From an uncultured Acidobacteriota bacterium (GTDB lineage: Bacteria > Acidobacteriota > Blastocatellia > Pyrinomonadales > Pyrinomonadaceae), in contig CAVYOP010000014.1 of NCBI GenBank assembly GCA_963770215.1, positions 396,940-460,939 on the forward strand: 64,000 bases of DNA. Direction: 5' to 3'. Each line of letters opens with the position of its first letter. Position 1 is the first letter of the stretch. The notes under the pieces are model-generated. The model was not told where the DNA came from and ran no database searches. It was given only the letters and a program-made list of their open reading frames with translations. The position numbers were made by a program, and so were the translations under genes. Below, one piece after another: positions 12,369 to 29,676 of this stretch.

Positions 12369-12773
12369 TTATCGTTGGGTAACTTCAGTTTTAGATTTGC
12401 GTGGAGCGACAACCGTGACGCGTAGTCCAAACAGCCGTGCGTCCAACGAATATGCGCCTGGTCCCAGAAAGAAGAGCGAAGCCGCAGTCAGTATCCTGAC
12501 GACGTAGACCAGGTTCATTGGCTGCTCAGCCAGGAACAGATTCGCTACGGCAGCAACGCAGGTGATTATCGAGAGGACGGGCGTCAGGAACCCGACAAGA
12601 AGACCGACAGAAATCAGGACTATTAACGAAACGACCGACCAGTGCAGGGTATTGGACGCGAAGTTGAACCGATGCGTAATGTTCAAGGCAAACATCCCGG
12701 CGGCCGCGATCCTCAAGAGGACAAGCCCAACCCCGGGACCGCCTTGAGGAAACATGGAGTAAAGTCTTTGCAC
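12369..12773 (-). CDS. DoxX-family membrane protein.
   Basis: 134-aa ORF with 4 TM segments. FPQGGPGVGLVLLRI and GPGAYSLDARLFG are typical DoxX ends. Confidence 0.7.
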   Translation of the reverse strand: MQRLYSMFPQGGPGVGLVLLRIAAAGMFALNITHRFNFASNTLHWSVVSLIVLISVGLLVGFLTPVLSIITCVAAVANLFLAEQPMNLVYVVRILTAASLFFLGPGAYSLDARLFGLRVTVVAPRKSKTEVTQR

Positions 12774-12866: not shown

Positions 12867-15800
12867 TCAGAACTGAAGTTTGAGCGCAAACTGGATCGAG
12901 CGCGGCCCGCCAATCTGATAAAGAGGATTGAATCCGCCGTTCGCGCCACCCGCACCAAGACTGTTCGCCAATGTCTGGGTCGAGAGACCAAACAGCGGGC
13001 TGGTCAAAAGATTTGTGGGACTGCCGAAGTTCGGATGATTGAAGATGTTGAAAAACTCAGCCCGGAAGCGAAGCCCGACCCGTTCCGTGATAGGAAACTT
13101 ACGCTGAAGACCGACATCAGCCTGCCACGCCCCAAATCCTCGCAGCACATTGCGCCCGAAATTTCCCTGCGTTCCGGCCGGCGCCGCGGCAAAAGCCGCG
13201 CGATTGAAAATCTTGCCGCCGGGAAACTGCGAGCCAAACAGCTCTAGCGGCACGCCGGGATTCACGTTCGGACGCGGAGCGAGCAAGGTCCCGGCAGCGA
13301 TGAAAGTCGCGCCGGCGATGTTCACCGGCGGCGCCGATCTCGCCAGAATGAAACTGTCCAACGACCAGCCACCGAAAACATGACGAACCGCCTTGTGCTG
13401 CGCCGGAGACGGCAGAACGTAAGTGACGCCGGCAGTGAATGAATGGCGAATATCGAAATCGGAGTTTCCGCGGTCCACGTTCGGAGCAGCTATCGCCGCC
13501 ACCGTGTTGAAGTTGTTGGTGGAGTCGGTCGAAGCAATATCGATCGAGTGAGACCAGGTGTACGAAGTAACGATCTGCAATCCGCGCGACAACCGCCGCT
13601 GAAACTTGATCTGTAACGCGTGGTAATCGGAAGTTGCAGAGTTGTCGGTGATCACGACCGATTGAAAATTCGGGTTCGGATTAAATAGCTGCGTTGTGCG
13701 AAGCAAGTCACGTCCGATTGCCGCGACATAAGTCGACGACAAACTCTGATTGTTACCGATGGACTGCTCCAGCGCGACGTTCCATTGATAAGTCCGCGGA
13801 AGTTTCAAATGCGGGTCCGCGACAAGGATGGTGCTCACCGGCGGATTGAGCGTGGGGACTGGAGGCGCAGCATTCTGAGGACTCAGAGGAAACGGCGCCA
13901 AAGCGAGTGTTTTGGAAACAAGATAAGGAAAGAAACTGGCGACTCCGCCAAGCGATCCCTGGCCGAGATCGTAAAACATCCCGAAGCCTGAGCGTAGCAC
14001 TGCATCCCAATCGCGTATCCCACGGAATTGATAGGCCAGCCCGACCCTGGGAGCGAAGTTGCCATAAGTTGTTTCATAGAGCGGCGTCCCGCGGGGCGCC
14101 AAAGTCATCGTGGCCGGATTGTCGAGACCGGCGATAGTGAAGGGATCGTCCGCGGCATGCTTGCCCTTGAGGGGTGGATTAACTTCCCACCGCACGCCGT
14201 AAGTCAACGTCAATCGCGGCGTTACCTTCCACGTGTCCTGTCCGTAAAGCGAAAGGTTTTGCGACAGCAGGGCGCTGCCCTGAAATACAGTGGGCTGCGC
14301 AAACGAAACGGTTCCCGAGAGCGCTCCTCCGGGATTCGCATTTACTCCAGAGAAGAAGAAAAAGTGACGGTAGGCAAACGGGCTGGTGAACGGTGCGAGC
14401 CAGCGATAGTCAACGCCAAACTTCATCTGATGCGAACCCTTGCTCACGGATAGATTGTCAAGCAAGTTCACCTGGCGCTGTTCGTTCACGCCTTGCTTTC
14501 CCTGAGCGTATTGTCCAGCGCCGCCGACTACAAACAGGAAAAGGCTATCCGCCGACGTGAACTGCGTGGGAAACAACAGCGAATCCGAAAGCGGAACAGC
14601 GCCGCCGAAATCGTCCATCACATAGTCGATCGTGACGCGGTCGTTGCTGTAGTTTGCGCGCACCTCGTTGCTGATTTCAGGAGTTATCAATTGGCTCGTG
14701 CCTAAGGTGAAGGTGTGTATCGAGGCCGCCATCGCATTCGTAGTGCTGAGGACCCTGCCGGATGCGAAGAACGGACCGCGTTGTTCGAGACTCGAAGGCG
14801 AGTAGTTGTATCTGGCAAACACGTTTACTTTCGAGCTCACCACATGGTCCATTCGAATGCCGTAGGCGTTCAACGTGGATGGATTCGAGAAGGAAGCGTT
14901 GAATTGCGCGAGCCCGCCGCCAAGCGCCGGTCCGTTGGCAATCGGAAACGCATTCAGGTACGGCCGCGACGCGGCTGGAGCAGCTTGTCGCGACGCGTTA
15001 TCCGGCACGACAGTTTGCAAACTCGACGGCTGGCGCAATCGCAATCCCTCGTACGAAAAGAAGAAGAACGTTCTGTCTTTGCGAACCGGCCCGCCGATGA
15101 CGCCGCCAAAGTCATTCTGCCGCGTCTCAGGTTTTGGCAAGCCGCTGGCGTTTACAAACCAGTCGCTAGCGTCAAGCACGCTATTCCTGAAATACTCGAA
15201 CAACGTGCCGTGAAAGGCATTACTGCCGGAGCGGGTCGCGATCGAAATCTGGCCGCCGGGAGTGCGTCCAAACTCCGGCGCAAACGAAGACGTTTGCACG
15301 CGAAACTCCTGCGTTGCATCCACGGAGACTAAGCTGTTCGTTCCACCCGAAGCACTGAAGGCGGGTAACGCGCCGCCCGCAGTCTGTACGAGCGTTGCCG
15401 CGCCGGTGATGCCAAAGTTGGCGCTCACTCCATCCACCGAGAAATAATTTGCATCCGCTCGTTGACCGTTGACGCTGAATTGTCCCTGATCGTTTTGCGA
15501 CGTCGCGGTATGGACCACTCCCGGCGCAAGCGCTATCAACGTCTGAAAGCTGCGGCCGTTGAGCGAAAAATTCTCGACGAACGTTCGGTCCACAACGGTG
15601 CTGACACTTGCCGACTCGGTGTTCAGCAGAGGGGCGCCAGCCTTCCACCGTGATGACTTCGGAAAGGTCTCCGATCGTCAGTTCGAGATCGATTCTGAGC
15701 GTATCCTGAACGTGAAGGATCACATTCGGCTTGAGCAGCTTCTTGAAGCCTGACTTTTCGATCTCGAGACGATAGCTGCCGGGTGGAAGATTTGCGAGAT

Positions 15801-15998
15801 AGTATTCGCCTGAACTGTTCGTGGAAGTTTTGTAACTAACACTCGTGGCGTCGCTGATCGCGGCGACGCCGGCCTCGACGATCAGAGCTTTCGCAGGATC
15901 GCTGATGCGACCTGTAAGCGAGGCGTTGGTGGATTGTCCTAATGCAAACGACAGTAGAGCATGAGGAGGAGGAATGCCAATGCAGCGAATCTGCGCAT
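12867..15998 (-). pseudogene. Oar-like TonB-dependent outer-membrane receptor with an N-terminal carboxypeptidase-regulatory-like domain. Two frameshifts near the 5' end.
   Basis: 908-aa ORF 12867..15593 ends in the barrel terminus SIQFALKLQF. Upstream fragments encode a signal peptide (MRRFAALAFLLLML, ATG at 15998) and CarboxypepD_reg (SGEYYLANLPPGSYRLEIEKSGFKK) in other frames. Breaks lie near 15940 and 15640. Confidence 0.8.
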
Positions 15999-16123
15999 CT
16001 GTTCAAACCTCAATTCAAGCGGATGTGTCAGGCTACTTCCGAATTCCCTGTCGCGTCAATACCTCAAAAGAGGGATGCTCCTCCGTGTGGGTTAGATTAA
16101 GCATGCTGTAAGATCTGGTCCAC

Positions 16124-19100
16124 ATGTCGAGATCAACAAAACCAGGGTCACCAATACTCTACCTCGTTTCGGCTTGCATCCTGCTGGTCTCGTGTAATTC
16201 TGCTTACGCTTTGAACCCGTCGATCGAAGTCCGTCAATACTCACACACGACCTGGAAAATTCGCGACGGCTTTTCCAAGGGCGTCATCGGGTCAGTAGCT
16301 CAAACGCCCGACGGTTACCTGTGGCTGGGAACTGAGTTTGGTCTGCTTCGGTTCGACGGCAAACGCAACGTGCCCTGGCAGCCGCCTGCGGGTCAACAGC
16401 TTCCCTCCAACATGATCATGAGCTTGCTCGCAGCGCGCGACGGAAGTCTTTGGATTGGCACTGCAAATGGCCTGGCAAAGTGGCAGGATGGAAAACTCAC
16501 CGAGTACGCTGAATTTGCCGGGAAGTACATTTTCAAAATCATCGAGGATCGCGAAGGAACAATATGGGCCACCGGTATTTCGATCACGACCGGCAAGCTC
16601 TGTGCGATCAAAAACAGCAACGTCTCTTGCGAAGGAGACGACAAGGTTCTCGGACGCGGAGCCTTCAGTCTTTATGAAGACAGCAAGGGCAATCTCTGGG
16701 CAGGATTGAAGAATGGACTTTGGCGATTCAGGCCCGGACCGCCAAAGTTTTATCCCCTGGCCGGCGAGCCGGATGGAATTCAAGGCATCGGTGAAGACGC
16801 AGATGGCACACTCCTGGTCGGCTGGAAAGGCGGAATCCACAGATTTCTTGACGGGCAAACCCAGCCTTATGCGCTTTCGGGCATCGAGGGGCAATTCAAG
16901 GCGAGAAGGATACTGCGCGATCGTGATGGCGGTTTGTGGATCGGAACGGGAGACCGCGGCCTTTTGCACGTACACCACGGCAAGGCAGACTTGTTTGCTT
17001 CCGCGGACGGACTCTCGGGCGACAACATCTACTCCATCTTCGAGGATCGCGAAAACAATATTTGGATCGCGACCGCTAACGGTCTCGATCGCTTTCGCGA
17101 CTTTGCTGTCGTGACGTTTTCCACGAGGCAAGGGCTCTCGAATGTTGTTGTCGCATCTGTTTTGGCAACTCGTGACGGCAGTGTTTGGCTCAGCACTTAC
17201 GGCGGCTTGCATCAATGGATAAACGGACAGATCGCGACCTTCGGCGCGGGGAAAACCAGACGGCAAACTCAACGGACAAAGCCCGAATTCTCTTTTCGAA
17301 GACGGTAGCGGACGAATTTGGGTTTCCACTCCGATGGGTTTCGGCTATTTGCAGGACGACCGCTTCGTTCCTGTCATTAACGTGCCCGGAGCAATCACTG
17401 CTATCGCACAAGACACAGGCCGGAGATCTTTGGATTGCCAACGAGCATGCCACCCTCTTCCAATTGCGCGGCGACAAGGTCGTGCAACAGATCCCCTGGT
17501 CCAGTGTCTGGCACGATGATCCGGGAAGCGCTCTCGCGGTTGATCCGGCTTGGGGCGGCTTGTGGATCGGATTCTGCCTGGGCGGCGTTGTTTATTTCAC
17601 AGACAATCAGATGCGCGAATCGTATGAGGGCGAGTGGGTTCGCGCAAGGGCGCGTCAATTATCTGCGTTTCGATCGCGACGGCGCGCTTTGGGCAGCGAC
17701 TAGTGGCGGTTTGAGCCGGTTGAAAGACAGCCGCGTAATCACGCTCACAAGCAGTAATGGATTGCCGTGCGAGACGGTTCACTGGATGATTGAAGACAAC
17801 TCTGGTTCGTTCTGGCTGGACACAGCTTGCGGCCTCGTGCGCATCACCCGGAACGAGTTGGACAAGTGGGTGGATGCGGTTGAAAAAGATCAAGGCAGCC
17901 AGGCCACAGATCCAGTTCGCAGTCTTCGATAGCTCAGACGGCGTCAGAAGCGTTTCGAGTGGCAGTCATTTCAGTCCCCAGGTGGCGCAGTCAGCGGACG
18001 GGAAAATATGGTTTAGCGGCATCGATGGTTTAAATGTCATCGACCCGAATCACCTTCCCTCCAATAACGTTCCGCCGCCGGTCAGCGTCGAACAGTTCAT
18101 CGCCGATCGGAAGACTTATGAGGCAGGGTCAGACGGAACCGTTGCGCTTGCCGCCGCTGATCCGAGATCTGCAAATAGACTACACGGCCCTGAGCCTCGT
18201 CGCTCCGGAAAAGAACCTGTTTCGTTACAAACTCGAGGGCCGCGATACCGATTGGCAGGAAGTCACCGATCGTCGGCAGGTCTTTTATAACGATCTGCCG
18301 CCCGGCAACTATCGTTTCCGCGTCATGGCTTCCAACAACAGCGGCGTCTGGAACGAGACCGGCACGTATCTCGATTTCTACATCGCCCCAGCTTATTATC
18401 AGACGACCTGGTTTCGCCTCGCCGTGGTTATCGTGTTTCTGTTAGGGCTGGTTGCGATTTATCAACTGCGGTTGCGGCAAGTTGCGCGGCAAGTGCGCGG
18501 GCGCATGGAAGAACGTCTGGAAGAGAGGGAGCGCATCGCTCGCGATTTGCACGACACGCTATTGCAAGGCGTGCAAGGTTTGATTCTGAAGTTTCATGCA
18601 GTCTCGAAACAGATACCTGCCGACACGCCGGCTTACAACGCGCTCGAGAAAACATTGGACCACGCCGATGAGGTTTTGGCAGAAGGAAGAGATCGCATTC
18701 GAAATCTGCGCGTCGATTCTGCGTCACTGAGTGATTTGCCGGCGGCATTCCGTTCTGTCGCCGAAGAGACGTCGCAGGGTCGTGATGCGGTCTTTAAGAC
18801 TGTGGTTGAGGGACATGTCCGTGACTTGCACCCGCTGGTGCTTGAGGAGTGTTACTCGCATTGGGCGCGAGGCCATAATCAATGCGCTGAGCCATTCCGA
18901 AGGTCAAAACGTCGAAGCAGAGATCGCCTATCGACTGCGCGACAGTTTCGTCTGCGCGTTCGTGACGACGGACGAGGCATCGATCCTAGGATCCTTGAAG
19001 CAGGGGGGCGTTCCGGTCATTGGGGACTTCAGGGAATGCACGAGCGAGCGCAAAAGATTGGCGGTCAATTGAGATTCTGGAGTCGACCGGAAACGGGCAC

Positions 19101-19202
19101 GGAAGTTGAGTTGACGGTTCCGGGAGCGACTGCGTATCAAGCTCGTCTCACAAATCAAAGAAGTTTTGGTTCGGCAAAAAGCAGAAAACACAAGATGAAT
19201 AA
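16124..19202 (+). pseudogene. Sensor histidine kinase (signal peptide, two-component regulator propeller repeats, Y_Y_Y, TM, HisKA_3, HATPase). Many frameshifts. The 3' end is uncertain.
   Basis: Fragments are 16124..17308, 17185..17703, 17435..17932, 17790..18290, 18034..19449 and 18731..19072. Recurrent GxLWIGTxxGL propeller motif, ERERIARDLHDTLLQ (H-box), GHWGLQGMHERAQKIGGQL (G-box). Paralogous to 22755..25745. Confidence 0.8.
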
Positions 19203-19239
19203 TTCGTGTTCGGTTTTGCATTTTGTGCCTTACTATGGC

Positions 19240-19868
19240 TTAGATTTCGATGATGCCGCGTTTCACGGCAATCGTTACGGCATGCGTTCGATCGTTTGCG
19301 CCAAGCTTCGAAAGAATGCTCTTCATGTGCGCTTTGATTGTTTCTTCGGAAACGTTGCAGGAGTTGGGCCACCATCTTGTTGGCGTTACCGGCCGCCACT
19401 TCCCGCAACACCTCGATTTCACGTTCAGTCAACGCAGTCGTCACTGTGATGCTCGGCCATCTCGACGGCGATTTCGGAAGGAATTCTTTTCTTGCCGGAG
19501 TGGACCGTGCGGATCGTGTCGATCAATTCCTTTCGCACCATGTTCTTCAGCAGATAACCTGAAGCGCCGGCTTTAATGGCGCGGGCCGCCTGCGCATCGC
19601 CGCTGTAAGTGGTCAGCACGATGATGCGAGCATCGGGAAACTCTTCGCGAATTTTCACAATCGCGTCGATGCCGTTGACCTCCGGCATCTGCACGTCCAT
19701 CAGAGTTACGTCGGGCCGATTGAGTGCGGAACTGTTCGATCGCTTCACGCCCGTTACTGGCTTCGGCGACGAGGACCATGTCATCTTCAGCAGCAAGCAC
19801 AGCGGCGATTCCCTCGCGCAGACACCGGGTGATCGTCCACCGTCAGGATTCGAATGCGGGCGGTTCAT
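19240..19868 (-). pseudogene. NarL/LuxR-family response regulator, with at least two frameshifts.
   Basis: The receiver domain is split between ORFs 19573..19800 and 19425..19931 (DVTLMDVQMPEVNGIDA). The HTH is in ORF 19240..19422 (ETIKAHMKSILSKLGANDRTHAVTIA). It lies directly downstream of the lasso precursor on the same strand. Confidence 0.75.
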
Positions 19869-19991
19869 GTTTCGCAGTCTACTACGAATTCCAGGTAAAC
19901 CTGGAGAGGAAAGCGGGCTCGCATCTACCAATTGCGATCGGTGGGCACAGCATGCAGATCAGCGAACCCGCCCCGGTTTTTTCTTACCATG

Positions 19992-20126
19992 TCAGACTAT
20001 CCTGTTCGAATTCAAAGTCGGGGCCAGTTGGTTTGGAACGTCATCGCCGCCCAAGCCAAAGCCCAGCACAACTACTTCTGCTTGACCAATCAGTGTCAAC
20101 TCAGGGGCTTCGTATTTGTTTTGCAT
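19992..20126 (-). CDS. Lasso peptide precursor (A peptide), 44 aa, not in the ORF track.
   Basis: My translation is MQNKYEAPELTLIGQAEVVVLGFGLGGDDVPNQLAPTLNSNRIV*. AGGAGG lies 9 nt upstream of the ATG. The leader fits YxxPxLx3Gx5(T)x with exact spacing. The predicted core starts with Gly and has Asp at positions 7 and 8. It begins 88 nt downstream of the cyclase stop. Confidence 0.7.
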   Translation of the reverse strand: MQNKYEAPELTLIGQAEVVVLGFGLGGDDVPNQLAPTLNSNRIV

Positions 20127-20213
20127 CGTACCTTTCCTCCTTTCTTTGTTTTTGAAGAGCTTATGTTTTGAAGAACTTATGCCGCCGCCAGAAACATTTG
20201 CGTAGCGCGCTTC

Positions 20214-21885
20214 TCACTCGCACGATTGCCGCAGCCACAACTCGAGCATGATGATCTGCCGCAACTGGTGCTCGTTGCAGTCGAGTCCGCGGCAAAGGCG
20301 CTCCAGCCGCGAGCGCACGCTCGTGTGATCAACAAATCCTCGCTCCACTACGTGCAATTGTTTAGCTTCTGCGAGACCGCGCGCCAACGGTCGCAGCGCT
20401 GCCTGCCACGGAGCATTGAACACACCTTTCGATCGACGCTCGCGCAACTTCGCAGGCCAGAAATCCGAGAAAGCCGAACGCATCAATCTTCGCGGCTCGC
20501 CCGGCCGGCAAAGAATATTCGCCGGCACGCTCATCAGGTACTCAACCAACGGGCGATGTCCGAATGGGTGCGTGTAGTCCAGATGTTGTAACGGCTCAGC
20601 GGGCTGTAGCTGCCGTAACTCCAGCATTGTCGCGAGCGTTCGAAAGTGTTTGCGACGCTCCGGCGGCGCTTGCATCCAGGAATTCGAGAAGTAGCTCGCT
20701 GAATCCATGAGACCCGTCCGGTCCTGAAAACCGGTGACCAAAGAAGTCTCGATACTGTGCGGCATATACGAACCATCTGCCGCCGCGTAAATCCTCGTTG
20801 GTGACAATCGCGGCGGGAGTGCAGCCTGAATTCCGCGCCAAAGAATCGGGTAGATAGGAACGCGGAGGAGTTTGCTCCACTCGAGCGCTTCCGCACATGC
20901 ACGCGCAGGACGAAAGCTTCGCAGCGATCTCGCCACCTGGAGACTGTCGTCAAACCAATTCCCCGTCATCAAGTCGCCGGCTTGTCCGGTTAGGACAGTA
21001 TTGGCCTTGAGATCATCCGCGACTGAAGCAATTGCCATCCGCAATGGCTGAAAAGTTTCGGGTGTTGCATTGCCAACTTGCTTTTCGGCGATGATTGGAA
21101 CGTCGTGGGTTGAAATGTACGTCCCTTGAATTCCGCAATGCGATTCGACCTCACGGATGAAAGGCTGGTCCAACGAGTTTTCCCAGACAAAGCTCACACT
21201 GCTGAGTCGCGTTGCCTGCGCCGCGCCTTCTCGCATTAGATCCGTTGCCACGCAAACAACAGACGACGAATCGAGTCCACCGCTTAGTTCGGCAAGAATC
21301 GGCGATTCGCCTTGCAGCCTGACGGCTACCGCTTCGCAAAACAGCGTCCGCAGCTCTTCTTCGTACCGGTGTTGGTTTTGATACTGGATCACGTCACCGA
21401 TGGGCATCGTCCAGAATCGTCTAATCTTTGTTTCACTAGCGGAAACACATACCGCATGGCCTGGAGGGACCGAGAAAATACCTTTGTATGGTGTGCGATT
21501 CGGACAACCGCCGAACGTCAGAAAACCTGCCACAAACTGCTCGTCAAGATCCGAGATGTCGAGTGGCGTCAACTAAAGACTGCAAGCGGTTGGACCACTG
21601 AACTCGTCCGCGTTGCACGTGATAATAAAGAGGACGGACGCCGGCGAAGTCACTTGCAAGCACCGTGGTCCTGTTCTCGTGATCGCGCAGGACTAGACTC
21701 CAATCGCCGATCAGTTGGACCAAACCTTCAGCTCCCCAACGCTCGTAGGTCGCACGCGCGATCGCTGCATCATTTGTCTTGCCTTTCAGCTCGTCTCTCA
21801 AGCGCAACAGCAAGTCGGATCGATTATCCAATCGGCCATCCCAGTGCAGGACTTCGACTCGCATATCGTGTATGTTCGCCAGCAT
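20214..21885 (-). pseudogene. Lasso peptide isopeptide bond-forming cyclase (asparagine synthetase-like, C protein), with one frameshift near 21560.
   Basis: ORF 20214..21572 has the PP-loop AELSGGLDSSSVVCVA. The N-terminal Ntn-like part is in ORF 21544..21954. The likely ATG at 21885 is preceded by AAGGAGG. Confidence 0.8.
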
Positions 21886-21898
21886 CTTCTTTCCTCCT

Positions 21899-22280
21899 TT
21901 AGACCACGTGCAGCGGCAAGAGTCGTTTCTGGTATGCAGATGAGCCGTAAACAACGCGCCCGTTTACTTCGACCCACGCATGAGAGAAAAACGGCGACGG
22001 ACGATAACCGATCACGAGGCGCGCGTTGATGCCATGCCTTCTAAGCAAGCGGACTGTACAGACGGCCCGTTGCAGACACAGCACCGGCTTCCAGTAGAAG
22101 CACGAAGCGAGCAAAACGGCGTCGCAAATCGACTTTTCCAACTCGGCGTCTGCGGCCTTCGCCGCGATAGACTGCTGTTTCAACTGCGACAGAATGCGCC
22201 CCGAGCCCCTGCAACGAAAGGGTCAATTCGTAATGGACGATCTCGTAAAGCGCTCTCAAGACGAGCCCGATCGTTTTCAT
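21899..22280 (-). pseudogene. Lasso peptide biosynthesis B2 protein (transglutaminase-like leader peptidase), with one frameshift near 22199.
   Basis: ORF 21899..22183 contains CLQRAVCTVRLLRRHGINARLVIGY...FFSHAWVEVNGRVV (Cys and His of the catalytic triad). The N-terminus MKTIGLVLRALYEIVHYELTL is in ORF 22041..22280. ATGA overlap with the B1 stop. Confidence 0.8.
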
Positions 22281-22567
22281 CGCGCAACCTCTCTTTTGAT
22301 TAGCGCTTGCTGCTCGAGTGCAGCCAGGAAGTTGATCGTGTGCACGCGTGCAGTTGGTCCAGCTATTTGAAACTCGCTGCTGATTTCCGCGACGATGCCG
22401 TCCAACGAACGTCGTTGTTCGATCCCGCGCCAGATGAGCGCGCCAGTCTTGTTGGAGCTGAACACTCGCCCTTTGCTCGTGTGCAGAATCACAATTCCGT
22501 CGTCGTAAGTGGAAGCAGCAGCTTCAGGGCTCACTGAATAACCAAACTTGCCAACATGGTCCGTCAT
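22277..22567 (-). CDS. PqqD-family RiPP recognition element protein (lasso B1).
   Basis: The sequence from the Met at 22567 (MTDHVGKFGYSVSPEAAAS...VFSSNKTGALIWRGIEQRRSLDGIVAEISSEFQI...) is typical PqqD/RRE in size and pattern. Confidence 0.75.
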   Translation of the reverse strand: MTDHVGKFGYSVSPEAAASTYDDGIVILHTSKGRVFSSNKTGALIWRGIEQRRSLDGIVAEISSEFQIAGPTARVHTINFLAALEQQALIKREVAR

Positions 22568-22754: not shown

Positions 22755-25745
22755 CTACGACGGCCCGGTGCGAAAGGCTACGCGCCCGGGAACTACCAGA
22801 ATAATGACGGTGCCTGAATCCGCGGAGCTGGCTAAACTGAACTTAGCACCGATGCGTTCAGCACGTTCTCGCATACCGCGCAATCCGAAATGACCTTCCT
22901 TGCCTTTCTCTGCCACTTCGGAATCGATGCCGACTCCGTTGTCGCCGACACGCAGCGTGAGATCGTGGGCATATTCGAGCCTGAGCGCCAAACGGTCACC
23001 GCCCGAGTGCGCACAGGCATTGCGAATCGCTTCATATCCAATTCGGTAGACTTCATCACGAACCACCGGATGTATTTCGCGGGCCTCTCCATCCATGGAA
23101 AACGTGATCTCGGCACTGCTTCCTCTGCCACATTCGTCGATCACGCGGCGAAACGCGTCGGCCAGATCGTTCTTTTCCGTAGTCGAGGCGCGCAACGATA
23201 GCAGTGCGGCGCGTCCTTCTTCAGTCGCCTGGGCCAACCACGTCGATAACTGTTCCATCGCCCGCACCATACGCGTCTGATCCGCGGGGTTCTTCAAAGC
23301 ATGATCCGCGACCAGCTTGCTGCCCTGGACCGTCTGCAACAAGGTGTCATGTAACTCGCGTGCGACGCGAGTGCGCTCGGCGAGGCGCTCGTCAAAACGA
23401 GCGCTAAGCATTCTGGAGATTTGGGCCACGCGCAATCGATAGATGAGGACTACCAGCAAAACACCGAGCGCAACCATCGCCGCGACGAACCAGCGTGTTT
23501 GATAGAAATAAGGTTGCTGCGTGACGCTGAAAACCACGCCCTGCCGGTCCCAGATGCCGCTCCGGTTGCAAGCACGAATATGCAACGCATGTGTCCCGAC
23601 CGGGATATTGCTGTAGATCGCCACCGGATCAGCCGGAGCGTCGAGCCATTCCGAATCAACTCCATCCAGCCGGTATTGCAGACGAATCTTTTCCGGCGCG
23701 GAGACTTCGACCGCCGCAAAATTAATCTCCAGCCGGCTGGTTCCCGGTGGCAGTATGATTTCGCGGCCGGCAGGTTGAGTGTTCCTGCCGATTGTCACGT
23801 CTGTAAGGTAAATCGACGGCTTCGCGTTCGTGACCGCAAGGCGACGAAGGTCGAACATGGCTAAGCCTTTCGGAGTAGCCGCATAAACTTTGCGGTCAGG
23901 AGTCAACGCCAGACAGCGGCCTGGCCCAGTCGCCTCTCGAGTAAACAATCCATCGGCGGTCGAAAACGCTTCGAAATCAAGCGGCTCATCACTCGACCGC
24001 GCCGGAGCAAAATTTCCGGGTTGTACTCTGCCTAGACCATCACCAGCGAGCCAGACTTCTCCTTCATCAGTCTCGACCAGATCACAGGCTGTCAATTGTT
24101 TAATCGTCTCAGCGCGATCTTTATGGAACCGGTGAGTAACTGCCTCCGAATCGACCTCGAGTTGGTAGAAGAGACCGCCGTCCCGATCTTCGCCAAAAGG
24201 AATGACCAACGCTTTGGGAAAAGACGCCTGATTCTCGAAACGATCGCCCGCCAATCGATCGAGTCCCTGTCTACTCCCGATCAAAATGTTTCCAGCTCGA
24301 TCCTCAAACACTCTGACAATCGAATTACCGGAAAGCCCGTCAGCCGTCGTAAAGGTGCGAAACTGTCCATTCTGCAAACGGGTAAGCCCGCCGTATGTGG
24401 CAAACCAAACAACGCCATCGCGCGCGGCGACGATGCTTCTGACTCGATCGTCTGGCAATGCCTGGCCCTTTGAATATTGGGTAAACCTGCCGTCGTGAAA
24501 ACGAAAAGCGCCGCCGCCGGAGGTCCCGATCCAAAGATCGCCATTCAGATCTTCGGCCAGCGACGAAATGCAACTATTGATTAAACCGTCCTTTTCGGTG
24601 TAGGTCCGAAAACGCTGCCCATCAAAATGGGCGATGCCGCCGCAATAAGCGCCGACCCAGAGAGTGCCGTCACGCGCAGTAAGCACGGTCTTGATTAAAT
24701 TGTTAGGCAGTCCATCATCGGTGGTGAACATTCTCACCGCCGGGTCTTTGAATTTGTATAACCCGTCTCCGTTAGTGGCAACCCACAAGTTATCATCGCG
24801 ATCGCTGTAAAGAGCTCGTACTTGCACTCCAGTCAACACTGCTTCAAGCCCTGATGGTGTTGCGCGAAATAGCCCATCTTCTTTTCCGATCCAAATCGTC
24901 CCTTGCGCGTCTTCATGTGCGCGAGACACCGCTTGCCGAATGCCGGCATAAGCTCCAAGCTTCGCGATTCGTCCATTTGCCTCGAGCGCAACGCCCTTCG
25001 CCGTGCCATACCACGTATTACCGTGACGGTCCTTCAGAACGTCGAAGATCTCACTATTCCTTATTCCCAGTTGAGCGGCGAGTCCGGAGTGAGAAATCAG
25101 CTCAGAGCCTGCGAGTTCCATTAAGCCCTGCTCATTCGTCACCAACATATGTCCGTCGGGCGCTTCGACAATCTGACCGGTTCGAATTCGTGGTCCAACA
25201 GCAACGAACTGTTCGTGTTCGTAGCGAAACAATCCATCGCCGGTTCCGACCCACAGGGCACCACTCTTACTGAAGCGAAGGCTCCAGATCGGCGTCGCTT
25301 TGTCGGGGATAGGACGGTAGAAAGTCAAGCGACTGAGTGAAAATTGATTGAAACTAGACGAAGGGATACGTACCAGGCCTTCAGTGTTGCCAACCCAGAG
25401 ATCCCCATCCGGGGCTACGGCCATTGTTGTAACCCGTGGGTTGTTGAAACGGTAGAAATTCCTGCCGTCGAAGCGAACCAGGATTGCGCCATTGAGAATC
25501 AGCCAAAGAAAACCATCTTTAGTTTGCACTGTCTGATCTACCACTAGCGCGGGCAGACCATTGTCGGTGGTGTAGTGGGTGCGGAGCAGACTGCTCGCCG
25601 GCAGGTTTGGATCGAGCGCGCAAACAGGAACACCTGCGAGGAAAACCGCGAGGACAGTGAGCGCTAAACGCCTAATCTTTTTTACAACGTTCACAAAAGC
25701 CGACCTGCCGAGTATCTGGCGAAACTTTATCTCAGGCAGATCCAT
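22755..25745 (-). CDS. Sensor histidine kinase with two-component regulator propeller repeats, Y_Y_Y, TM, HisKA_3 and HATPase domains (intact).
   Basis: 996-aa ORF. Repeated DGxLWVGTxxGL motifs. TM segment WFVAAMVALGVLLVVLIY. H-box ERTRVARELHDTLLQ. GHFGLRGMRERAERIGAKF. Confidence 0.9.
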   Translation of the reverse strand: MDLPEIKFRQILGRSAFVNVVKKIRRLALTVLAVFLAGVPVCALDPNLPASSLLRTHYTTDNGLPALVVDQTVQTKDGFLWLILNGAILVRFDGRNFYRFNNPRVTTMAVAPDGDLWVGNTEGLVRIPSSSFNQFSLSRLTFYRPIPDKATPIWSLRFSKSGALWVGTGDGLFRYEHEQFVAVGPRIRTGQIVEAPDGHMLVTNEQGLMELAGSELISHSGLAAQLGIRNSEIFDVLKDRHGNTWYGTAKGVALEANGRIAKLGAYAGIRQAVSRAHEDAQGTIWIGKEDGLFRATPSGLEAVLTGVQVRALYSDRDDNLWVATNGDGLYKFKDPAVRMFTTDDGLPNNLIKTVLTARDGTLWVGAYCGGIAHFDGQRFRTYTEKDGLINSCISSLAEDLNGDLWIGTSGGGAFRFHDGRFTQYSKGQALPDDRVRSIVAARDGVVWFATYGGLTRLQNGQFRTFTTADGLSGNSIVRVFEDRAGNILIGSRQGLDRLAGDRFENQASFPKALVIPFGEDRDGGLFYQLEVDSEAVTHRFHKDRAETIKQLTACDLVETDEGEVWLAGDGLGRVQPGNFAPARSSDEPLDFEAFSTADGLFTREATGPGRCLALTPDRKVYAATPKGLAMFDLRRLAVTNAKPSIYLTDVTIGRNTQPAGREIILPPGTSRLEINFAAVEVSAPEKIRLQYRLDGVDSEWLDAPADPVAIYSNIPVGTHALHIRACNRSGIWDRQGVVFSVTQQPYFYQTRWFVAAMVALGVLLVVLIYRLRVAQISRMLSARFDERLAERTRVARELHDTLLQTVQGSKLVADHALKNPADQTRMVRAMEQLSTWLAQATEEGRAALLSLRASTTEKNDLADAFRRVIDECGRGSSAEITFSMDGEAREIHPVVRDEVYRIGYEAIRNACAHSGGDRLALRLEYAHDLTLRVGDNGVGIDSEVAEKGKEGHFGLRGMRERAERIGAKFSLASSADSGTVIILVVPGRVAFRTGPS

Positions 25746-25805
25746 CGCGCGCTATCAAACTCTTGAGCAGTGTTACCACAGTTTTCTGTAGGTTTGCCGA
25801 ATCGA

Positions 25806-26435
25806 TCAGAATGGCAACAGCCCGCGACGGGCCGCGATCGTAACCGCATGCGTGCGATCGTTCGCTCCTAACTTGTCGACGATGTTCTTGATATGAAAGT
25901 TGACGGTGTTCTCGGAAATCGACAGTTGATCGGCTATCTGTTTGTTCTTGTAGCCATCGCGGATCAATTGCAGCACCTGCACCTCCCGAGGCGTCAGGTC
26001 TTCTTCACCCAAATGTTCGGCGAGCAGCGCCGCTACCGCCGGCGGAACCTGTCGTTTGCCTGAATGAACCGATCGGATCACTGCCAGCAAGTCGTCCTGT
26101 GGCATGCTCTTGAGAACGTAACCTGCCGCTCCCGAACGCAGTGCACGCTGAATTTCGCCATCGCTGTCGGACGACGACAGCATAATGATTCGCGCGTCAG
26201 GAAACTCTCCGCGAATTGCAATTAGTATGTCGGTGCCGTTAGTGCCGGGAAGGCGCAGATCCATCAGCGTGACGTCCGGGCGATGGCGTCGAAACTCGGC
26301 GATAGCCTCGACTCCGTTAGCCGCCTGAGCGACCAGGACCATGTCCGATTCCGTTTCGATAATTGTGGCGAGACCCTGGCGAAAGACCGGATGATCTTCG
26401 ACGCTCAGGATGCGAATTTGTTTGGAGTGGACCAC
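25806..26435 (-). CDS. NarL/LuxR-family response regulator.
   Basis: 209-aa ORF. Receiver domain (ILSVEDHPVFRQGL, DVTLMDLRLPGTNG). LuxR HTH (LTPREVQVLQLIRDGYKNKQIADQLSISENTVNFHIKNI). Confidence 0.9.
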   Translation of the reverse strand: MVHSKQIRILSVEDHPVFRQGLATIIETESDMVLVAQAANGVEAIAEFRRHRPDVTLMDLRLPGTNGTDILIAIRGEFPDARIIMLSSSDSDGEIQRALRSGAAGYVLKSMPQDDLLAVIRSVHSGKRQVPPAVAALLAEHLGEEDLTPREVQVLQLIRDGYKNKQIADQLSISENTVNFHIKNIVDKLGANDRTHAVTIAARRGLLPF

Positions 26436-26464: not shown

Positions 26465-28684
26465 TTAAACTGACGCACTTATCACCTTTTCAGCCTTCTT
26501 CTGCCGCGGCTTCTGGCTTTGCGCGCTTTTAACGTCATCGCGTTTCACTGGACTAAACTCGACAGTCTCCAACTCCATCTGTGCGTCGAAACTCTTCTCA
26601 CCTGCAGCCGGCTTGACGCGTACGTACGTGCCGTCGGCGCGCAACTCGCGCGCGTTGACGTTGTCCTTTAAATAAGCCGCCAACACCGTGTCTTTCAACA
26701 CACTCCTTAGCTGTGCGTCTTTGATTGGCGTAAGCACCTCGACGCGCCGGCTAAGGTTCCGATACATCAGATCGGCGCTCCCGATGAACACCTCTTCCTT
26801 TCCGTGGTTCGCGAAATAGAAGATGCGGCTGTGCTCGAGAAACCGCCCGACGATGCTGCGCACCCTGATATTCTCTGACACCTGCGGAACGCCGGGCCGA
26901 AGCATGCAGATTCCGCGGACGATTAGATCGACGGACACGCCGGCCTGCGATGCAGCATAGAGAGCGCGAATCAACGCAATATCAGTAAGGCTGTTGAGCT
27001 TGGCAATGATGCGGCCATCCCGACCAGCTTTAGCGTGCGCCTTTTCGCGTTGAATGAGTTTGATGACTCGCTTTCTCAGATTCAACGGCGCGACGAGCAG
27101 GCAATCATAATCACTGAACTCGGAGTAGCCCGTTAAGGAGTTGAAAAGATTCGTTGCGTCGTCGGCAATCTCATCGTCACATGTAAAAAGCCCGATGTCC
27201 GTATAAATTCGAGACGTGGTCTGATTGTAGTTTCCGGTAGCGAGATGAACGTAACGCCGCAGGATCTTGCCTTCACGCCGCACGACTAATGCGAGCTTGC
27301 AGTGAGTCTTCAGACCCACCATCCCGTAAACCACGTGCACACCTGCTTGTTCCAGTCGCCGCGCCCATTCGATATTGCTCTCTTCGTCGAAGCGGGCCTT
27401 CAACTCTACGAGAGCCGTAACTTGCTTGCCTCTTTCTGCTGCGTCGATCAACGCCTTCACGATTGGAGAGTTGGGACCAGTGCGATACAGGCAGATCTTG
27501 ATGGCGACGACGTTCGGCTCGGAGGCGGCTGAGTTGATGAAATTCGTGACCGTAGAATAAGCAGTGTACGGATGGTGCACGAGCACATCCTGGAACCTGA
27601 TCGCGTCAAAAATGTTCTCATGCCCTCGCAACGCAGCAGGAGTGCTTACCTGCAAAGGCCGGTCTTTTAGTTCCGGCTTGTCGAGATCGTACAACTGCAT
27701 CATGTCCGGAAGATTGAATGGTCCATCGACGGTGTAGACGTCGTCAGCCCTGAGCTCGAGAGACTTCGTCAGGGACGACACCATCTCACGAGGCATACTC
27801 GCAGCGACTTCCAATCGCACCGCATCTCCGAATCTCATGCGCCGCACGTGCTTTTGCATCGTGCGCAGGAGATCGCCGGCTTCATCCTCCTTGATTTCGA
27901 AGTCTGCATCGCGAGTCACCCGGAACAGATGACACTTCCCGGTTCGCATGTTGGGAAACAACATCTCGATGTTGGCGGCAATCAAACTGCCCAAAAATGT
28001 GAACCGGGGTCGCTTATCATCAATCGGGATCAAGCGCGGAACGATTGGCGGAAGCTTGATGCGCGCGAACCTCGCCTCTTTCATCGTCGAGGTTGCGTCT
28101 TTTGTTTTCTTCGAAGGTCCCGGAGAAACCATCACGCCGAGATTCAGACTCAGATTGGACACGTACGGAAACGGATGACCGGGATCGACAGCTTGCGGCG
28201 TCAGGATTGGAAAAACATTCTCGAGAAAATAATCGTTCGCAAACTTTCTCTCGCGCTTGGTGAGATCGCGAAACGAACGGATGATGATCCCGTTTTTCGC
28301 AAGCGCCGGCAGGACCTCTTCCTTCAAACAACGCATTTGCCGTTCGAGCAGCGGACTAAGTCGCGAGCGGATCTCCGTCAACTGATCCAGCGGAGACATA
28401 CCGTCAGGCGACTCTTCAAGAATTTCAGATTCCAGCGCTTCCTGAAGTCCTGAAACACGCACCATGAAGAACTCGTCCAGGTTGGACGAAAAGATCGCGA
28501 GAAACTTGAGCCTTTCCAGCCAGGGATGACGATCGTCGAGTGCTTCCTCCAGGACGCGCCGGTTGAATTCCAGCCAGCTCAATTCCCTGTTTATTAAAAG
28601 GTGTTTCTGGAGGCGAGGATTCCGCGAGAGCTTCGCTTCGTTGGCTTGCTGAGATCCTTTTTGCTTCGCGCGATCGGCAGTCAT
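26465..28684 (-). CDS. ppk1: Polyphosphate kinase 1.
   Basis: 739-aa ORF. N-terminal LINRELSWLEFNRRVLEEA...LKFLAIFSSNLDEFFMVRV and the overall length are typical of PPK1. Confidence 0.9.
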   Translation of the reverse strand: MTADRAKQKGSQQANEAKLSRNPRLQKHLLINRELSWLEFNRRVLEEALDDRHPWLERLKFLAIFSSNLDEFFMVRVSGLQEALESEILEESPDGMSPLDQLTEIRSRLSPLLERQMRCLKEEVLPALAKNGIIIRSFRDLTKRERKFANDYFLENVFPILTPQAVDPGHPFPYVSNLSLNLGVMVSPGPSKKTKDATSTMKEARFARIKLPPIVPRLIPIDDKRPRFTFLGSLIAANIEMLFPNMRTGKCHLFRVTRDADFEIKEDEAGDLLRTMQKHVRRMRFGDAVRLEVAASMPREMVSSLTKSLELRADDVYTVDGPFNLPDMMQLYDLDKPELKDRPLQVSTPAALRGHENIFDAIRFQDVLVHHPYTAYSTVTNFINSAASEPNVVAIKICLYRTGPNSPIVKALIDAAERGKQVTALVELKARFDEESNIEWARRLEQAGVHVVYGMVGLKTHCKLALVVRREGKILRRYVHLATGNYNQTTSRIYTDIGLFTCDDEIADDATNLFNSLTGYSEFSDYDCLLVAPLNLRKRVIKLIQREKAHAKAGRDGRIIAKLNSLTDIALIRALYAASQAGVSVDLIVRGICMLRPGVPQVSENIRVRSIVGRFLEHSRIFYFANHGKEEVFIGSADLMYRNLSRRVEVLTPIKDAQLRSVLKDTVLAAYLKDNVNARELRADGTYVRVKPAAGEKSFDAQMELETVEFSPVKRDDVKSAQSQKPRQKKAEKVISASV

Positions 28685-29676
28685 TACTCCGGTTTGCCCT
28701 CAACGTTCGTTGGCGCTACGACAACTATTGACGTTACCAGGGGGCGGCTCTCGGCATTCAGCCTCTCTCTCAATTTCGCACTGGTGTCATGTGACTCCCA
28801 TTCACACCAGTGGTCGAAAGCCTGGCGTAGATGTTTGGTCCGAAGCTTAACAAAATGGCCTAACAACCACACGAACGCAGCTACCTGCTCGTCGCGTTTA
28901 TGCTTGCGCGCCGCGCGAATCTCGCGGCCAAAACTCTCGATCCAAACATCACAATCGTGCACGTCTCCGAGCGCGGTTTGGATGCGAGCGGAACGTTTGG
29001 CGTAAGTCGCAAGCGAGTTTCGCCAGCACTGTTGAAAAAGCTCTAAGGCATAACGCAGGCGCTTGGCGGCAATCCGCATCTCATGGAGGGTTTCGATTTC
29101 AAAAGGATCGAATAGACCATTACTCAGTTTTTCCAGCTCTTTCAAGCGATCCAAAATTATCGACCGTGACATCTTTCGGAAAGTGAGCTCCGGGTCATCT
29201 GTCGCCGTCGCCTTATCGACCTTTTCACTAAAAGCTGCGTCCAGTTTCTCGAGCTCACTCTGTTCCAGCACTGCGATCAATTCCTCACGTGCCCGTTCAC
29301 GAACTTCTTTTCTAGCGTCGATAAATTCTTTGAGTGCGGGCGACACTTTCGTTGGAGTGTGCGAAGCGATCTTCTCCAGCGCCATGATGGCAACATCTTG
29401 ATCACGTACTTCCCCGAGCGCATCAGCGAGACTCCTTATTTCTTTCTGGATAGACGTGAGGCTCCGCTTGCGAAGGTAAGGCGTGCAATCACGCAACACA
29501 CTGCGCAGCCGGCGGGAAGCGACGCGCATTGAATGGACCCCTTCCGGATCGGACCAATCCAACGCTGCGTCACGCAATTCATACAACTCTTTGAACCTCG
29601 TAAGCAGCACCAGTTTAACGCCGGCGGCAGCAGCGGCGTTGCACTTGATTCCTTTGACTCGTTTTGCTTTTGCCAT
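28684..29676 (-). CDS. CHAD domain-containing protein.
   Basis: 330-aa helical ORF with repeated HxxRxxxKRLR motifs (HSMRVASRRLRSVL, LHEMRIAAKRLRYALELF). Its start and stop each overlap the neighbouring gene by 1 nt. Confidence 0.8.
   Translation of the reverse strand: MAKAKRVKGIKCNAAAAAGVKLVLLTRFKELYELRDAALDWSDPEGVHSMRVASRRLRSVLRDCTPYLRKRSLTSIQKEIRSLADALGEVRDQDVAIMALEKIASHTPTKVSPALKEFIDARKEVRERAREELIAVLEQSELEKLDAAFSEKVDKATATDDPELTFRKMSRSIILDRLKELEKLSNGLFDPFEIETLHEMRIAAKRLRYALELFQQCWRNSLATYAKRSARIQTALGDVHDCDVWIESFGREIRAARKHKRDEQVAAFVWLLGHFVKLRTKHLRQAFDHWCEWESHDTSAKLRERLNAESRPLVTSIVVVAPTNVEGKPE

What the first reader, a model, noticed from the sequence alone, without database searches (positions are those of the whole stretch)
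19992..20126. Unlisted 44-aa ORF is a strong lasso-peptide precursor candidate with Val instead of the conserved Thr at position -2
This ORF is below the ORF-track cut-off. AGGAGG lies 9 nt before the ATG at 20126. The peptide is MQNKYEAPELTLIGQAEVVVLGFGLGGDDVPNQLAPTLNSNRIV.

Tyr5, Pro8, Leu10 and Gly14 reproduce the YxxPxLx3Gx5Tx leader motif that PqqD-type RREs bind. The spacing puts the cleavage site before Gly22. The predicted core GFGLGGDDVPNQLAPTLNSNRIV has Gly1 and Asp7/Asp8, which would allow a 7- or 8-membered macrolactam, followed by a 15-16 aa tail. The -2 residue is Val, not the near-invariant Thr. I do not recognise the core sequence.
Basis: partly seen in the sequence, partly recalled or inferred. 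Interest (0 to 1): 0.75.

Follow-up and report, generated by a model that had tools for sequence, protein, structure and literature searches.

The report
Frameshifted lasso-peptide precursor gene, Val(-2) family
The small ORF is a real lasso-peptide precursor gene from a large, uncharacterised family in soil Acidobacteria that always has Val instead of Thr at leader position -2, but in this window a one-base deletion garbles its last residues, so the predicted product is wrong at its C-terminus.

Summary
The ORF (20126..19992, minus strand), its AGGAGG site and its YxxPxLx3G motif are all as described. It lies directly after PqqD/B1, B2 and lasso-cyclase genes. I found 107 distinct homologues in Pyrinomonadaceae and Terriglobales MAGs and soil metagenomes, always in the order B1-B2-C-A. 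So the lasso-precursor reading and cleavage before Gly22 are supported.

Three corrections:
1. The tail "TLNSNRIV" comes from a 1-nt deletion near 20020-20024. The family ends in a near-invariant DFEFEQD, and the window still encodes DFEFEQDSLTW one frame over.
2. The ring acceptor is Asp8 (106 Asp and 1 Glu of 107). Asp7 is variable.
3. Val(-2) is family-wide (106 Val, 1 Ile, no Thr). It pairs with loss of the B1 tyrosine thought to contact Thr(-2). Ile/Val(-2) lasso leaders were already reported in Acidobacteria (PMC10368454).

B2, C and the neighbouring regulator, kinase and TonB-receptor genes also carry about 14 single-base indels. Their pN/pS matches that of intact orthologues, so these are probably assembly errors.

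Verdict: a new member of a known kind, of moderate interest.

The parts
19992..20126 (-). Precursor (A) ORF as read: 44 aa. The 21-aa leader is MQNKYEAPELTLIGQAEVVVL. The core starts at Gly22.
   Evidence: Homologues. Purifying selection in this frame.
19984..20126 (-). Precursor gene after frame repair: 47 aa, MQNKYEAPELTLIGQAEVVVLGFGLGGDDVPNQLAPDFEFEQDSLTW. One base is missing in the GGCCCCG run at about 20020-20024.
   Evidence: The DNA alignment with L004, L002 and L003 shows a single 1-nt gap in the window only. The adjacent frame reads DFEFEQDSLTW*. The L024 core is identical up to D22.
20136..20141 (-). Shine-Dalgarno AGGAGG, 9 nt upstream of the ATG.
   Evidence: AAAGGAG(G/A) is conserved at the same place in 19 genome loci.
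20214..21885 (-). Lasso cyclase (C), an Asn-synthetase homologue. It is split by a +1 insertion at about 21563. The SGGLDSS ATP-binding motif is present.
   Evidence: The intact orthologue is 563 aa.
21899..22280 (-). Leader peptidase B2 (transglutaminase-like Cys protease). It is split by a +1 insertion at about 22215. Its start overlaps the B1 stop (ATGA).
   Evidence: NF033537 lasso_biosyn_B2 scores 70.6 bits against a cut-off of 33, and PF13471 also matches. Frames. Family alignment.
22277..22567 (-). B1, a PqqD-type RiPP recognition element. It is intact.
   Evidence: PF05402 scores 50 bits against a cut-off of 23.4. The orthologue matches TbiB1 (5v1u) at E 1.1e-8..
19897..19979 (-). Long hairpin followed by UUUCCUCU, directly after the A stop codon. 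It looks like a terminator or attenuator. Homologous loci have different sequences that also form inverted repeats here.
   Evidence: -34.1 kcal/mol, z -1.9. The consensus terminator scan did not call it.
19240..19858 (-). LuxR-type response regulator (RR2), co-conserved with the cluster. It is broken by four +1 insertions at about 19821, 19722, 19437 and 19357.
16124..19140 (+). Sensor histidine kinase (HK2) with Reg_prop, Y_Y_Y, HisKA_3 and HATPase domains, co-conserved with the cluster. It is broken by at least 7 insertions.
12867..15954 (-). TonB-dependent receptor with a CarboxypepD_reg domain and a beta-barrel, co-conserved with the cluster. It has one +1 insertion at about 15644.
12396..12755 (-). 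Small protein of about 120 aa with no Pfam match ('h123'). It recurs beside the cluster in several loci.
22755..26435 (-). A second two-component pair upstream of B1: HK1 at 22755-25745 and RR1 at 25806-26435. Both are intact.

Best explanation
The ORF is the A (precursor) gene of a class II-type lasso-peptide cluster, B1-B2-C-A, from an Acidobacteriota genome that is most likely Pyrinomonadaceae.

Inferred mechanism:
- B2 cuts between Leu(-1) and Gly1.
- The cyclase adenylates Asp8 and joins it to the Gly1 amine. This makes an 8-residue ring through which the tail is threaded.
- Phe17 and Phe19 of the conserved DFEFEQD tail are the likely plugs.

Val(-2) is the family's normal P2 residue. The B1 residue equivalent to TfuB1 Tyr33, which is proposed to contact Thr(-2), is aliphatic in every family member. 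This suggests a hydrophobic S2 pocket.

In this window the A gene has lost one base. The true product is therefore MQNKYEAPELTLIGQAEVVVL | GFGLGGDDVPNQLAPDFEFEQDSLTW, not the 44-aa peptide as read. B2, C and the neighbouring RR2, HK2 and TonB-receptor genes carry similar single-base indels. These are most likely assembly errors rather than decay.

Shown: homology, synteny, conservation and the indels. Inferred: cleavage site, ring, threading, the S2 explanation and the artefact reading.
For: Cluster identity:
- B2 passes the NCBIfam lasso B2 cut-off, B1 passes PqqD, and C matches Asn_synthase and lasso-cyclase models.
- The orthologue of B1 matches TbiB1.

Family conservation (107 unique precursors):
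- Y-17, P-14, L-12, G-8 and G+1 are each 107/107.
- Position -2 is Val in 106 and Ile in 1.
- Position 8 is Asp in 106 and Glu in 1.
- D16, F19 and D22 are invariant, and F17, E18, E20 and Q21 nearly so.
- The core is 22 aa in 89 of 107.

Synteny: wherever upstream DNA exists, the cyclase lies immediately upstream of A, across about 100 loci.

Frameshift in A: a 1-nt gap is present only in the window, and DFEFEQDSLTW* reads in the adjacent frame.

B1 covariation: the Tyr33-equivalent is L 39, V 10, M 3, F 1 and never Y in 53 unique B1 sequences. Register comes from 6jx3_B. The role of Tyr33 comes from bioRxiv 10.1101/2022.04.06.487251 and PMC10368454.

Artefact reading:
- There are 14 insertions against 1 deletion, mostly outside homopolymers.
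- All four RR2 insertions are unique to the window among more than 20 homologues.
- After indel removal, pN/pS equals that of intact orthologues: RR2 0.11 vs 0.10-0.13, C 0.25 vs 0.25-0.32, B2 0.23, HK2 0.25. There are no extra stops.
Against: - No product has been observed for any family member.
- The precursor scores below the NCBIfam lasso_leader_L3 cut-off (12-17 bits against 19).
- No exporter, isopeptidase or tailoring gene is conserved nearby, so the peptide's fate and function are unknown.
- B2 has Gly where TfuB2 has the third triad residue, Glu124. E124A does keep 15% activity.
- I have no read-level data, so real and very recent frameshifts cannot be excluded. No independent assembly of the same strain over this region was found.
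Confidence: 0.85

Rival explanations
1. The cluster, including A, is a true recently inactivated pseudogene block. The frameshifts are real mutations and the organism no longer makes the peptide.
For: - The deposited sequence carries frame-breaking indels in A, B2, C, RR2, HK2 and the TonB receptor. All of these belong to one co-conserved module.
- Flanking genes B1, HK1, RR1 and ppk are intact.
Against: - pN/pS and pN of the repaired genes are no higher than in intact orthologues, and there are no extra stops.
- Four indels in the 618-bp RR2 gene without excess substitutions is not what gradual decay gives.
- The 14:1 bias towards insertions runs against the usual deletion bias of bacterial pseudogenes (my own knowledge).
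- A second indel-rich patch lies in an unrelated kinase paralogue at 32139-35071.
Confidence: 0.15
2. The 44-aa peptide exactly as read, with tail PTLNSNRIV, is the functional precursor of a novel lasso peptide.
For: The ORF is open, has a strong RBS, and has a correct leader, Gly1 and Asp8.
Against: - The tail differs from all 107 homologues only through a 1-nt deletion.
- The DFEFEQD codons are still present out of frame, at the same nucleotide identity as in relatives.
- The as-read tail lacks the two conserved Phe residues.
- B2 and C are also frameshifted, so the pathway as read could not process it.
Confidence: 0.03
3. The peptide is a substrate of a different RiPP pathway or a non-RiPP small protein, and its position next to lasso genes is coincidental.
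For: It fails the curated NCBIfam leader cut-off and lacks Thr(-2).
Against: - It is strictly adjacent to B1-B2-C in about 100 loci, across two different gene arrangements.
- The Y-17/P-14/L-12 spacing to an invariant Gly is exact.
- There is an invariant acidic residue at position 8.
- No other RiPP enzyme genes are nearby.
Confidence: 0.02

Closest known systems
Fusilassin/fuscanodin pathway of Thermobifida fusca (TfuA/FusA, TfuB1/FusE, TfuB2/FusB, TfuC/FusC) and the TbiB1-leader complex (PDB 5v1u/5v1v, 6jx3)
   Same: - Split B1 (PqqD-type recognition element) and B2 (Cys protease), plus an Asn-synthetase-like cyclase.
- Leader with Y(-17)xxP(-14)xL(-12).
- The B1 residues equivalent to Val24, Leu26 and Gly31 of TfuB1 are conserved.
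   Different: - Position -2 is Val, not Thr.
- The B1 Tyr33-equivalent is Leu, Val or Met.
- B2 has Gly at the position of Glu124.
- A follows C (B1-B2-C-A).
- The core is strongly acidic, with a conserved C-terminal DFEFEQD.
BsfA of Bradymonas sediminis and the predicted Ile/Val(-2) precursors of Acidobacteriaceae and Sphingomonadales (Duan et al. 2023, PMC10368454)
   Same: - Aliphatic residue at -2 instead of Thr.
- Partly an Acidobacteria host range.
- YxxPxL leader.
- Acidic C-termini (for example ...YESDE).
   Different: - All those clusters encode a kinase or phosphotransferase. None is found beside this family.
- The precursor sequences are unrelated. YEAPELT and DFEFEQD do not occur in the held literature.
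- The hosts are Pyrinomonadaceae and Terriglobales MAGs.
Isopeptidase-type proteobacterial lasso clusters (astexin-like)
   Same: They have no ABC exporter but do have a TonB-dependent transporter and dedicated regulators next to the lasso genes (PMC9266682).
   Different: - No isopeptidase, GntR regulator or sigma/anti-sigma pair is found here.
- Regulation would go through LuxR-type two-component systems.
- B is split into B1 and B2.
Microcin J25
   Same: It has a Gly1-to-acidic-residue-8 ring of 8 residues, about 21-22 residues in total, and two aromatic residues near the C-terminus as plugs. This is from my own knowledge and was not tested here.
   Different: No sequence similarity. B is fused and a McjD exporter is present. 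Position -2 is Thr.

Membership tests
Lasso peptide precursor (RiPP class) | Encoded next to a leader peptidase (B, or B1+B2) and an Asn-synthetase-like lasso cyclase (C) | tested here: met
   B1 matches PF05402, B2 matches NF033537 above its cut-off, and C matches PF00733 and lasso-cyclase models. The order B1-B2-C-A holds in about 100 homologous loci.
Lasso peptide precursor (RiPP class) | [quoted passage not shown] | tested here: met
   Y5, P8, L10, G14 and G22 in the window. All are 107/107 in the family.
Lasso peptide precursor (RiPP class) | Thr at leader position -2 | tested here: not met
   Val in the window. The family has Val 106, Ile 1 and Thr 0. Exceptions with Ile/Val/Ala(-2) are documented (PMC10368454).
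Lasso peptide precursor (RiPP class) | Core residue 1 is Gly/Ala/Ser/Cys, and there is an Asp/Glu at position 7-9 | tested here: met
   Gly1 is 107/107. Position 8 is Asp in 106 and Glu in 1. Asp7 occurs in only 72 of 107.
Lasso peptide precursor (RiPP class) | Tail long enough to thread, with bulky plug residues | tested here: inconclusive
   The repaired tail has 14-18 residues with conserved Phe17 and Phe19. The as-read tail lacks them. Threading itself cannot be computed here.
Lasso peptide precursor (RiPP class) | Dehydrated, threaded product formed from the peptide | not testable with these tools
   This needs expression and MS/MS. Expected masses are given.
NCBIfam NF033521 lasso_leader_L3 | Score at or above the curated cut-off of 19 bits | tested here: not met
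   Scores are 12.2-16.9 bits for the window peptide, its repaired form and four of five relatives. The fifth gave no match. All matches are in register from Tyr5.
Kinase-associated Ile/Val(-2) lasso clusters (Duan et al. 2023) | A kinase or phosphotransferase gene in the cluster | tested here: not met
   Neighbours within 6-10 kb are only two-component systems, a TonB receptor, a small unknown protein and housekeeping genes.
Isopeptidase-type lasso clusters | A lasso isopeptidase gene plus a TonB-dependent transporter | tested here: not met
   The TonB receptor is present and co-conserved. No peptidase gene was found in the window flanks or in the loci examined.
Functional gene in this window | Open reading frame collinear with homologues | tested here: not met
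   There is a 1-nt deletion at about 20020-20024. B2 and C each carry a +1 insertion.

The most novel reading that the evidence does not exclude
This family may be a distinct lasso system built around recognition of an aliphatic P2 residue.
- Val(-2) is paired with an aliphatic residue in place of the B1 tyrosine.
- B2 lacks the third triad acid.
- The product, with a net charge of about -6 and an invariant DFEFEQD tail, would not be an exported antibiotic. It would be a ligand taken up or sensed by the co-conserved TonB-dependent receptor and propeller-type histidine kinase/LuxR regulator. That would make it a peptide signal or metallophore-like molecule in uncultured soil Acidobacteria.
Probability: 0.25. 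Interest if true: 0.65.

Novelty: new member of a known kind. Interest (0 to 1): 0.4.

Why it matters
- The family is abundant in soil metagenomes. There are 107 distinct precursors, and 2735 B2 relatives at E <= 0.001.
- NCBI names its B2 as a lasso protein, but the one precursor that carries an NCBI name (P0004) is annotated as a hypothetical protein.
- The natural pairing of Val(-2) with loss of the B1 tyrosine is a ready-made test of the proposed S2-pocket model for lasso leader peptidases.
- The constant linkage to a TonB receptor and two-component systems hints at a non-antibiotic role.
- For this window the practical message is a caution. The peptide as read is not the real product, and the locus needs sequence verification before any synthesis or expression.

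Tried and rejected
- Rfam and tRNA scans of the window found nothing.
- The consensus promoter/terminator scan missed the hairpin after A.
- A codon-usage frame plot, meant to map all frameshifts in the window, was too weak to be informative.
- Exact-protein look-ups for an independent assembly of the same strain:
  - RR1 is on a 5-kb Logan contig (ERR11571147), but no DNA was available and it does not reach the lasso genes.
  - B1 with three different starts, and ppk, are not on record.
- A PDB sequence search with B2 gave no hit.
- Kretsch et al. 2023 (PMC10126823) is not held, and the LassoESM supplements are not held. I could not check whether RODEO-type datasets already list this family.
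- Alternative cleavage sites were considered and rejected. A core starting at Ile13, Gly14, Gly26 or Gly27 has no acidic residue at positions 7-9 or a non-permitted first residue. A core starting at residue 23 would have a variable first residue.
- The ORF of 65 aa called after A in L001 is not conserved and has no family match.

Full report
**Observation.** ATG is at 20126 and the stop codon ends at 19992 on the minus strand. The product is MQNKYEAPELTLIGQAEVVVLGFGLGGDDVPNQLAPTLNSNRIV, and AGGAGG lies 9 nt upstream. A six-frame scan for a relaxed lasso-leader pattern finds this site and no other in the 64-kb window.

**Genomic context.** On the same strand, directly upstream, lie three genes.
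- A PqqD-family gene (B1, 22567..22277) matches PF05402 above its cut-off.
- A transglutaminase-like gene (B2, 22280..21899) scores 70.6 bits on NF033537 'lasso peptide biosynthesis B2 protein', against a cut-off of 33.
- An asparagine-synthetase-like gene (C, 21885..20214) matches PF00733, with best NCBIfam hits to lasso and macrolactam cyclases. It carries the SGGLDSS motif.

B1 is intact. B2 and C are each split between two frames.

**Homologues.** A protein search with the 44-aa peptide returned 27 peptides of about 43 aa. Scans of GTDB genomes and JGI metagenomes with the family alignment added 19 and 80 loci. All 19 genome loci are MAGs. Sixteen are titled Pyrinomonadaceae, Blastocatellia or Acidobacteriota, and two are Terriglobales. 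The window's DNA is 74-89% identical to them, so the window is most likely from a Pyrinomonadaceae-like acidobacterium.

In total there are 107 distinct precursors.

| Position | Residue counts (of 107) |
|---|---|
| -17, -14, -12, -8 | Tyr, Pro, Leu, Gly, each 107 |
| -2 | Val 106, Ile 1, Thr 0 |
| -1 | Met 98, Leu 8, Phe 1 |
| +1 | Gly 107 |
| 6 | Gly 104 |
| 7 | Asp 72 |
| 8 | Asp 106, Glu 1 |
| 10 | Pro 101 |
| 16-22 | D-F-E-F-E-Q-D, invariant or nearly so |

The core is 22 residues long in 89 of 107. In the reading frame, pN/pS between the window and its relatives is 0.04-0.44. The same DNA read one base over gives 0.5-1.2. This is a real, selected coding sequence.

**Synteny.** It is not; this ORF is the conserved one. 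Some loci carry two to four tandem precursor genes (L029, L077, L094, L092, L081).

**The correction: A itself is frameshifted.** The window peptide diverges from every homologue after Ala35-Pro36. A DNA alignment with three relatives shows a single 1-nt gap in the window only, in the GGCCCCG run at about 20020-20024. The following codons for DFEFEQD are still there, and the adjacent frame reads DFEFEQDSLTW*. This resembles P0001/L004, which ends ...DFEFEQDSPTW. The L024 core is identical to the repaired window core up to Asp22.

The as-read tail 'TLNSNRIV' is therefore an out-of-frame reading. The true or ancestral product is MQNKYEAPELTLIGQAEVVVL | GFGLGGDDVPNQLAPDFEFEQDSLTW.

**Are the frameshifts real?** I compared the window with the syntenic intact locus of Pyrinomonadaceae MAG DATELZ010000085.1 (L001, L002, L005). 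Frame-breaking indels occur in these genes:
- the TonB receptor (about 15644);
- HK2 (a 13-nt insertion at 17249, and single bases at 17418, 17890, 18137, 18857, 18931, 18937);
- RR2 (19357, 19437, 19722, 19821);
- A (about 20020, a deletion);
- C (about 21563);
- B2 (about 22215).

That is 14 insertions against 1 deletion, mostly not in homopolymers. All four RR2 insertions are unique to the window among more than 20 homologues. A second patch lies in an unrelated kinase paralogue at 32139-35071. B1, HK1, RR1 and the ppk-CHAD-ppx genes are intact.

After removing the indels, the window's genes have the same pN/pS as intact orthologues, and no extra stop codons.

| Gene | Window pN/pS | Intact orthologues |
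|---|---|---|
| RR2 | 0.11 | 0.10-0.13 |
| C | 0.25 | 0.25-0.32 |
| B2 | 0.23 | 0.17-0.26 |
| HK2 | 0.25 | 0.24-0.29 |

Many indels with no excess substitutions, and a strong insertion bias, fit patchy assembly or consensus error better than pseudogene decay. I rate artefact over real at roughly 4:1. Without reads I cannot settle it. Attempts to find an independent assembly of the same strain failed.

**Mechanism (inferred).** The spacing Tyr-17, Pro-14, Leu-12 is that of the leader motif bound by lasso recognition elements. These three residues were the ones mutated in BsfA (PMC10368454). The orthologous B1 matches TbiB1 (5v1u/5v1v) at E 1.1e-8 and aligns with TfuB1 (6jx3).

Cleavage before the invariant Gly, followed by isopeptide formation with the invariant acidic residue at position 8, gives an 8-membered ring. 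Asp7 is too variable to be the acceptor. Other candidate core starts lack an acidic residue at positions 7-9 or begin with a variable residue. Phe17 and Phe19 are the obvious plug candidates. The mature peptide would carry a net charge of about -6.

**Why Val(-2).** In TfuB1, residues Val24, Leu26, Gly31 and Tyr33 lie on the sheet that faces B2. L26A, G31A and Y33A abolish cleavage without affecting leader binding (bioRxiv 10.1101/2022.04.06.487251). Tyr33 of FusE is suspected to contact Thr(-2) as part of the S2 pocket (PMC10368454).

The 6jx3_B numbering is offset by 9, which puts Tyr33 in the G-E-Y motif. The aligned position in this family's B1 is Leu 39, Val 10, Met 3, Phe 1 and never Tyr, among 53 unique sequences. 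Val24, Leu26 and Gly31 keep their counterparts. The window has GRVF. So Thr(-2)->Val goes together with Tyr->aliphatic, consistent with a hydrophobic S2 pocket.

In addition, B2 keeps the catalytic Cys (VLCLQRA) and His (SHAWVE). It has Gly at His+12, where TfuB2 has Glu124 of the Cys-His-Asp/Glu triad. E124A retains about 15% activity, so this need not be inactivating.

**Neighbourhood and possible function.** Three genes accompany the lasso genes in two different arrangements: a LuxR-type regulator (RR2), a propeller/Y_Y_Y histidine kinase (HK2) and a CarboxypepD_reg-type TonB-dependent receptor.
- Arrangement 1: A-RR2-HK2(reverse)-receptor. This is the arrangement in the loci titled Pyrinomonadaceae.
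- Arrangement 2: RR2-(small protein)-B1-B2-C-A-receptor(reverse)-HK2. The two Terriglobales loci show variants of this.

Linkage that survives rearrangement argues for a functional module. No ABC exporter, isopeptidase, kinase or other tailoring gene is conserved. One exceptional locus has a TonB homologue downstream.

The nearest precedent is the proteobacterial isopeptidase-type cluster. It also lacks an exporter and carries a TonB-dependent transporter and regulators, and it has been likened to siderophore systems (PMC9266682). A signalling or uptake role is a hypothesis only.

**What is known.**
- Lasso clusters with the order B1-B2-C-A have been recovered from Acidobacteria-like soil metagenome DNA (PMC9064862).
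- Ile(-2) has been validated in BsfA, and Ile/Val(-2) leaders were predicted in Acidobacteriaceae and Sphingomonadales. All of those clusters have a kinase (PMC10368454).
- Those precursors are unrelated in sequence to this family. The strings DFEFEQD and YEAPELT occur in no held paper.
- Every family member tested scores below the curated cut-off of NCBIfam lasso_leader_L3, and one gave no match.
- The one precursor with an NCBI name is called 'hypothetical protein', while its B2 neighbour is named as a lasso protein.

**Verdict.** This is a new, uncharacterised and abundant lasso-precursor family. The window holds a copy whose sequence as deposited is frameshifted, probably by assembly error. 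It is a new member of a known kind, with moderate interest (0.4). The interest comes mainly from the Val(-2)/B1 covariation and the conserved receptor and two-component linkage.

Noticed in passing
window 15640-22220: This stretch holds a dense patch of at least 15 frame-breaking indels: 14 insertions (13 of a single base and one of 13 nt, mostly non-homopolymer) and 1 deletion. They hit the TonB receptor, HK2, RR2, A, C and B2, while flanking genes are intact. After repair, pN/pS equals that of intact orthologues. The patch looks like a local assembly or consensus error.
   Followed up: yes
window 32139-35071 (minus strand): A second indel-rich patch. A paralogue of the upstream histidine kinase (HK1-like, up to 87% aa identity in pieces) is broken into at least 7 frame segments.
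   Followed up: partly
window 22460-22480 (B1 motif GRVFSSN); loci L005-L103: The B1 residue equivalent to TfuB1/FusE Tyr33, the proposed contact of Thr(-2), is Leu, Val, Met or Phe in all 53 unique family B1 sequences. This pairs with Val(-2) in the leader.
   Followed up: yes
window about 21925-21960 (B2 C-terminus HAWVEVNGRVVYGS); loci L005-L072: B2 has Gly at His+12, where TfuB2 has the triad residue Glu124. The same is true of all aligned family B2 sequences (about 40, from 50 unique). The paeninodin-group B2 proteins also lack an acid there.
   Followed up: partly
window 19897-19979 (minus strand): A long hairpin (-34 kcal/mol) followed by UUUCCUCU lies right after the precursor stop. 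Homologous loci have unrelated sequences that also form inverted repeats at this place.
   Followed up: partly
L029 5584-6050; L077 1008-1620; L094; L092; L081; L026: Some relatives carry 2-4 tandem precursor genes with different ring and loop sequences but the same leader and DFEFEQD tail. L026 has two complete B1-B2-C sets in tandem.
   Followed up: no
window 6512-8164 (minus strand): A half-size ABC transporter (ABC_membrane + ABC_tran, 550 aa) lies about 12 kb from the precursor. It has the format of lasso D exporters but is not part of the conserved neighbourhood in homologous loci.
   Followed up: partly
L075 388-650: One metagenome homologue reads through into an 87-aa product after ...GGDD. 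This is probably another frameshifted copy or contig error.
   Followed up: no
window 26465-31806: An intact polyphosphate gene set (ppk, a CHAD-domain protein, ppx/GppA and a histidine phosphatase) lies next to RR1. In the MAG orthologue a catalase occupies this side instead.
   Followed up: no
window 12396-12755 (minus strand); L001 16870-17241: A protein of about 120 aa with no Pfam match recurs beside the TonB receptor or the lasso genes in both gene arrangements.
   Followed up: partly
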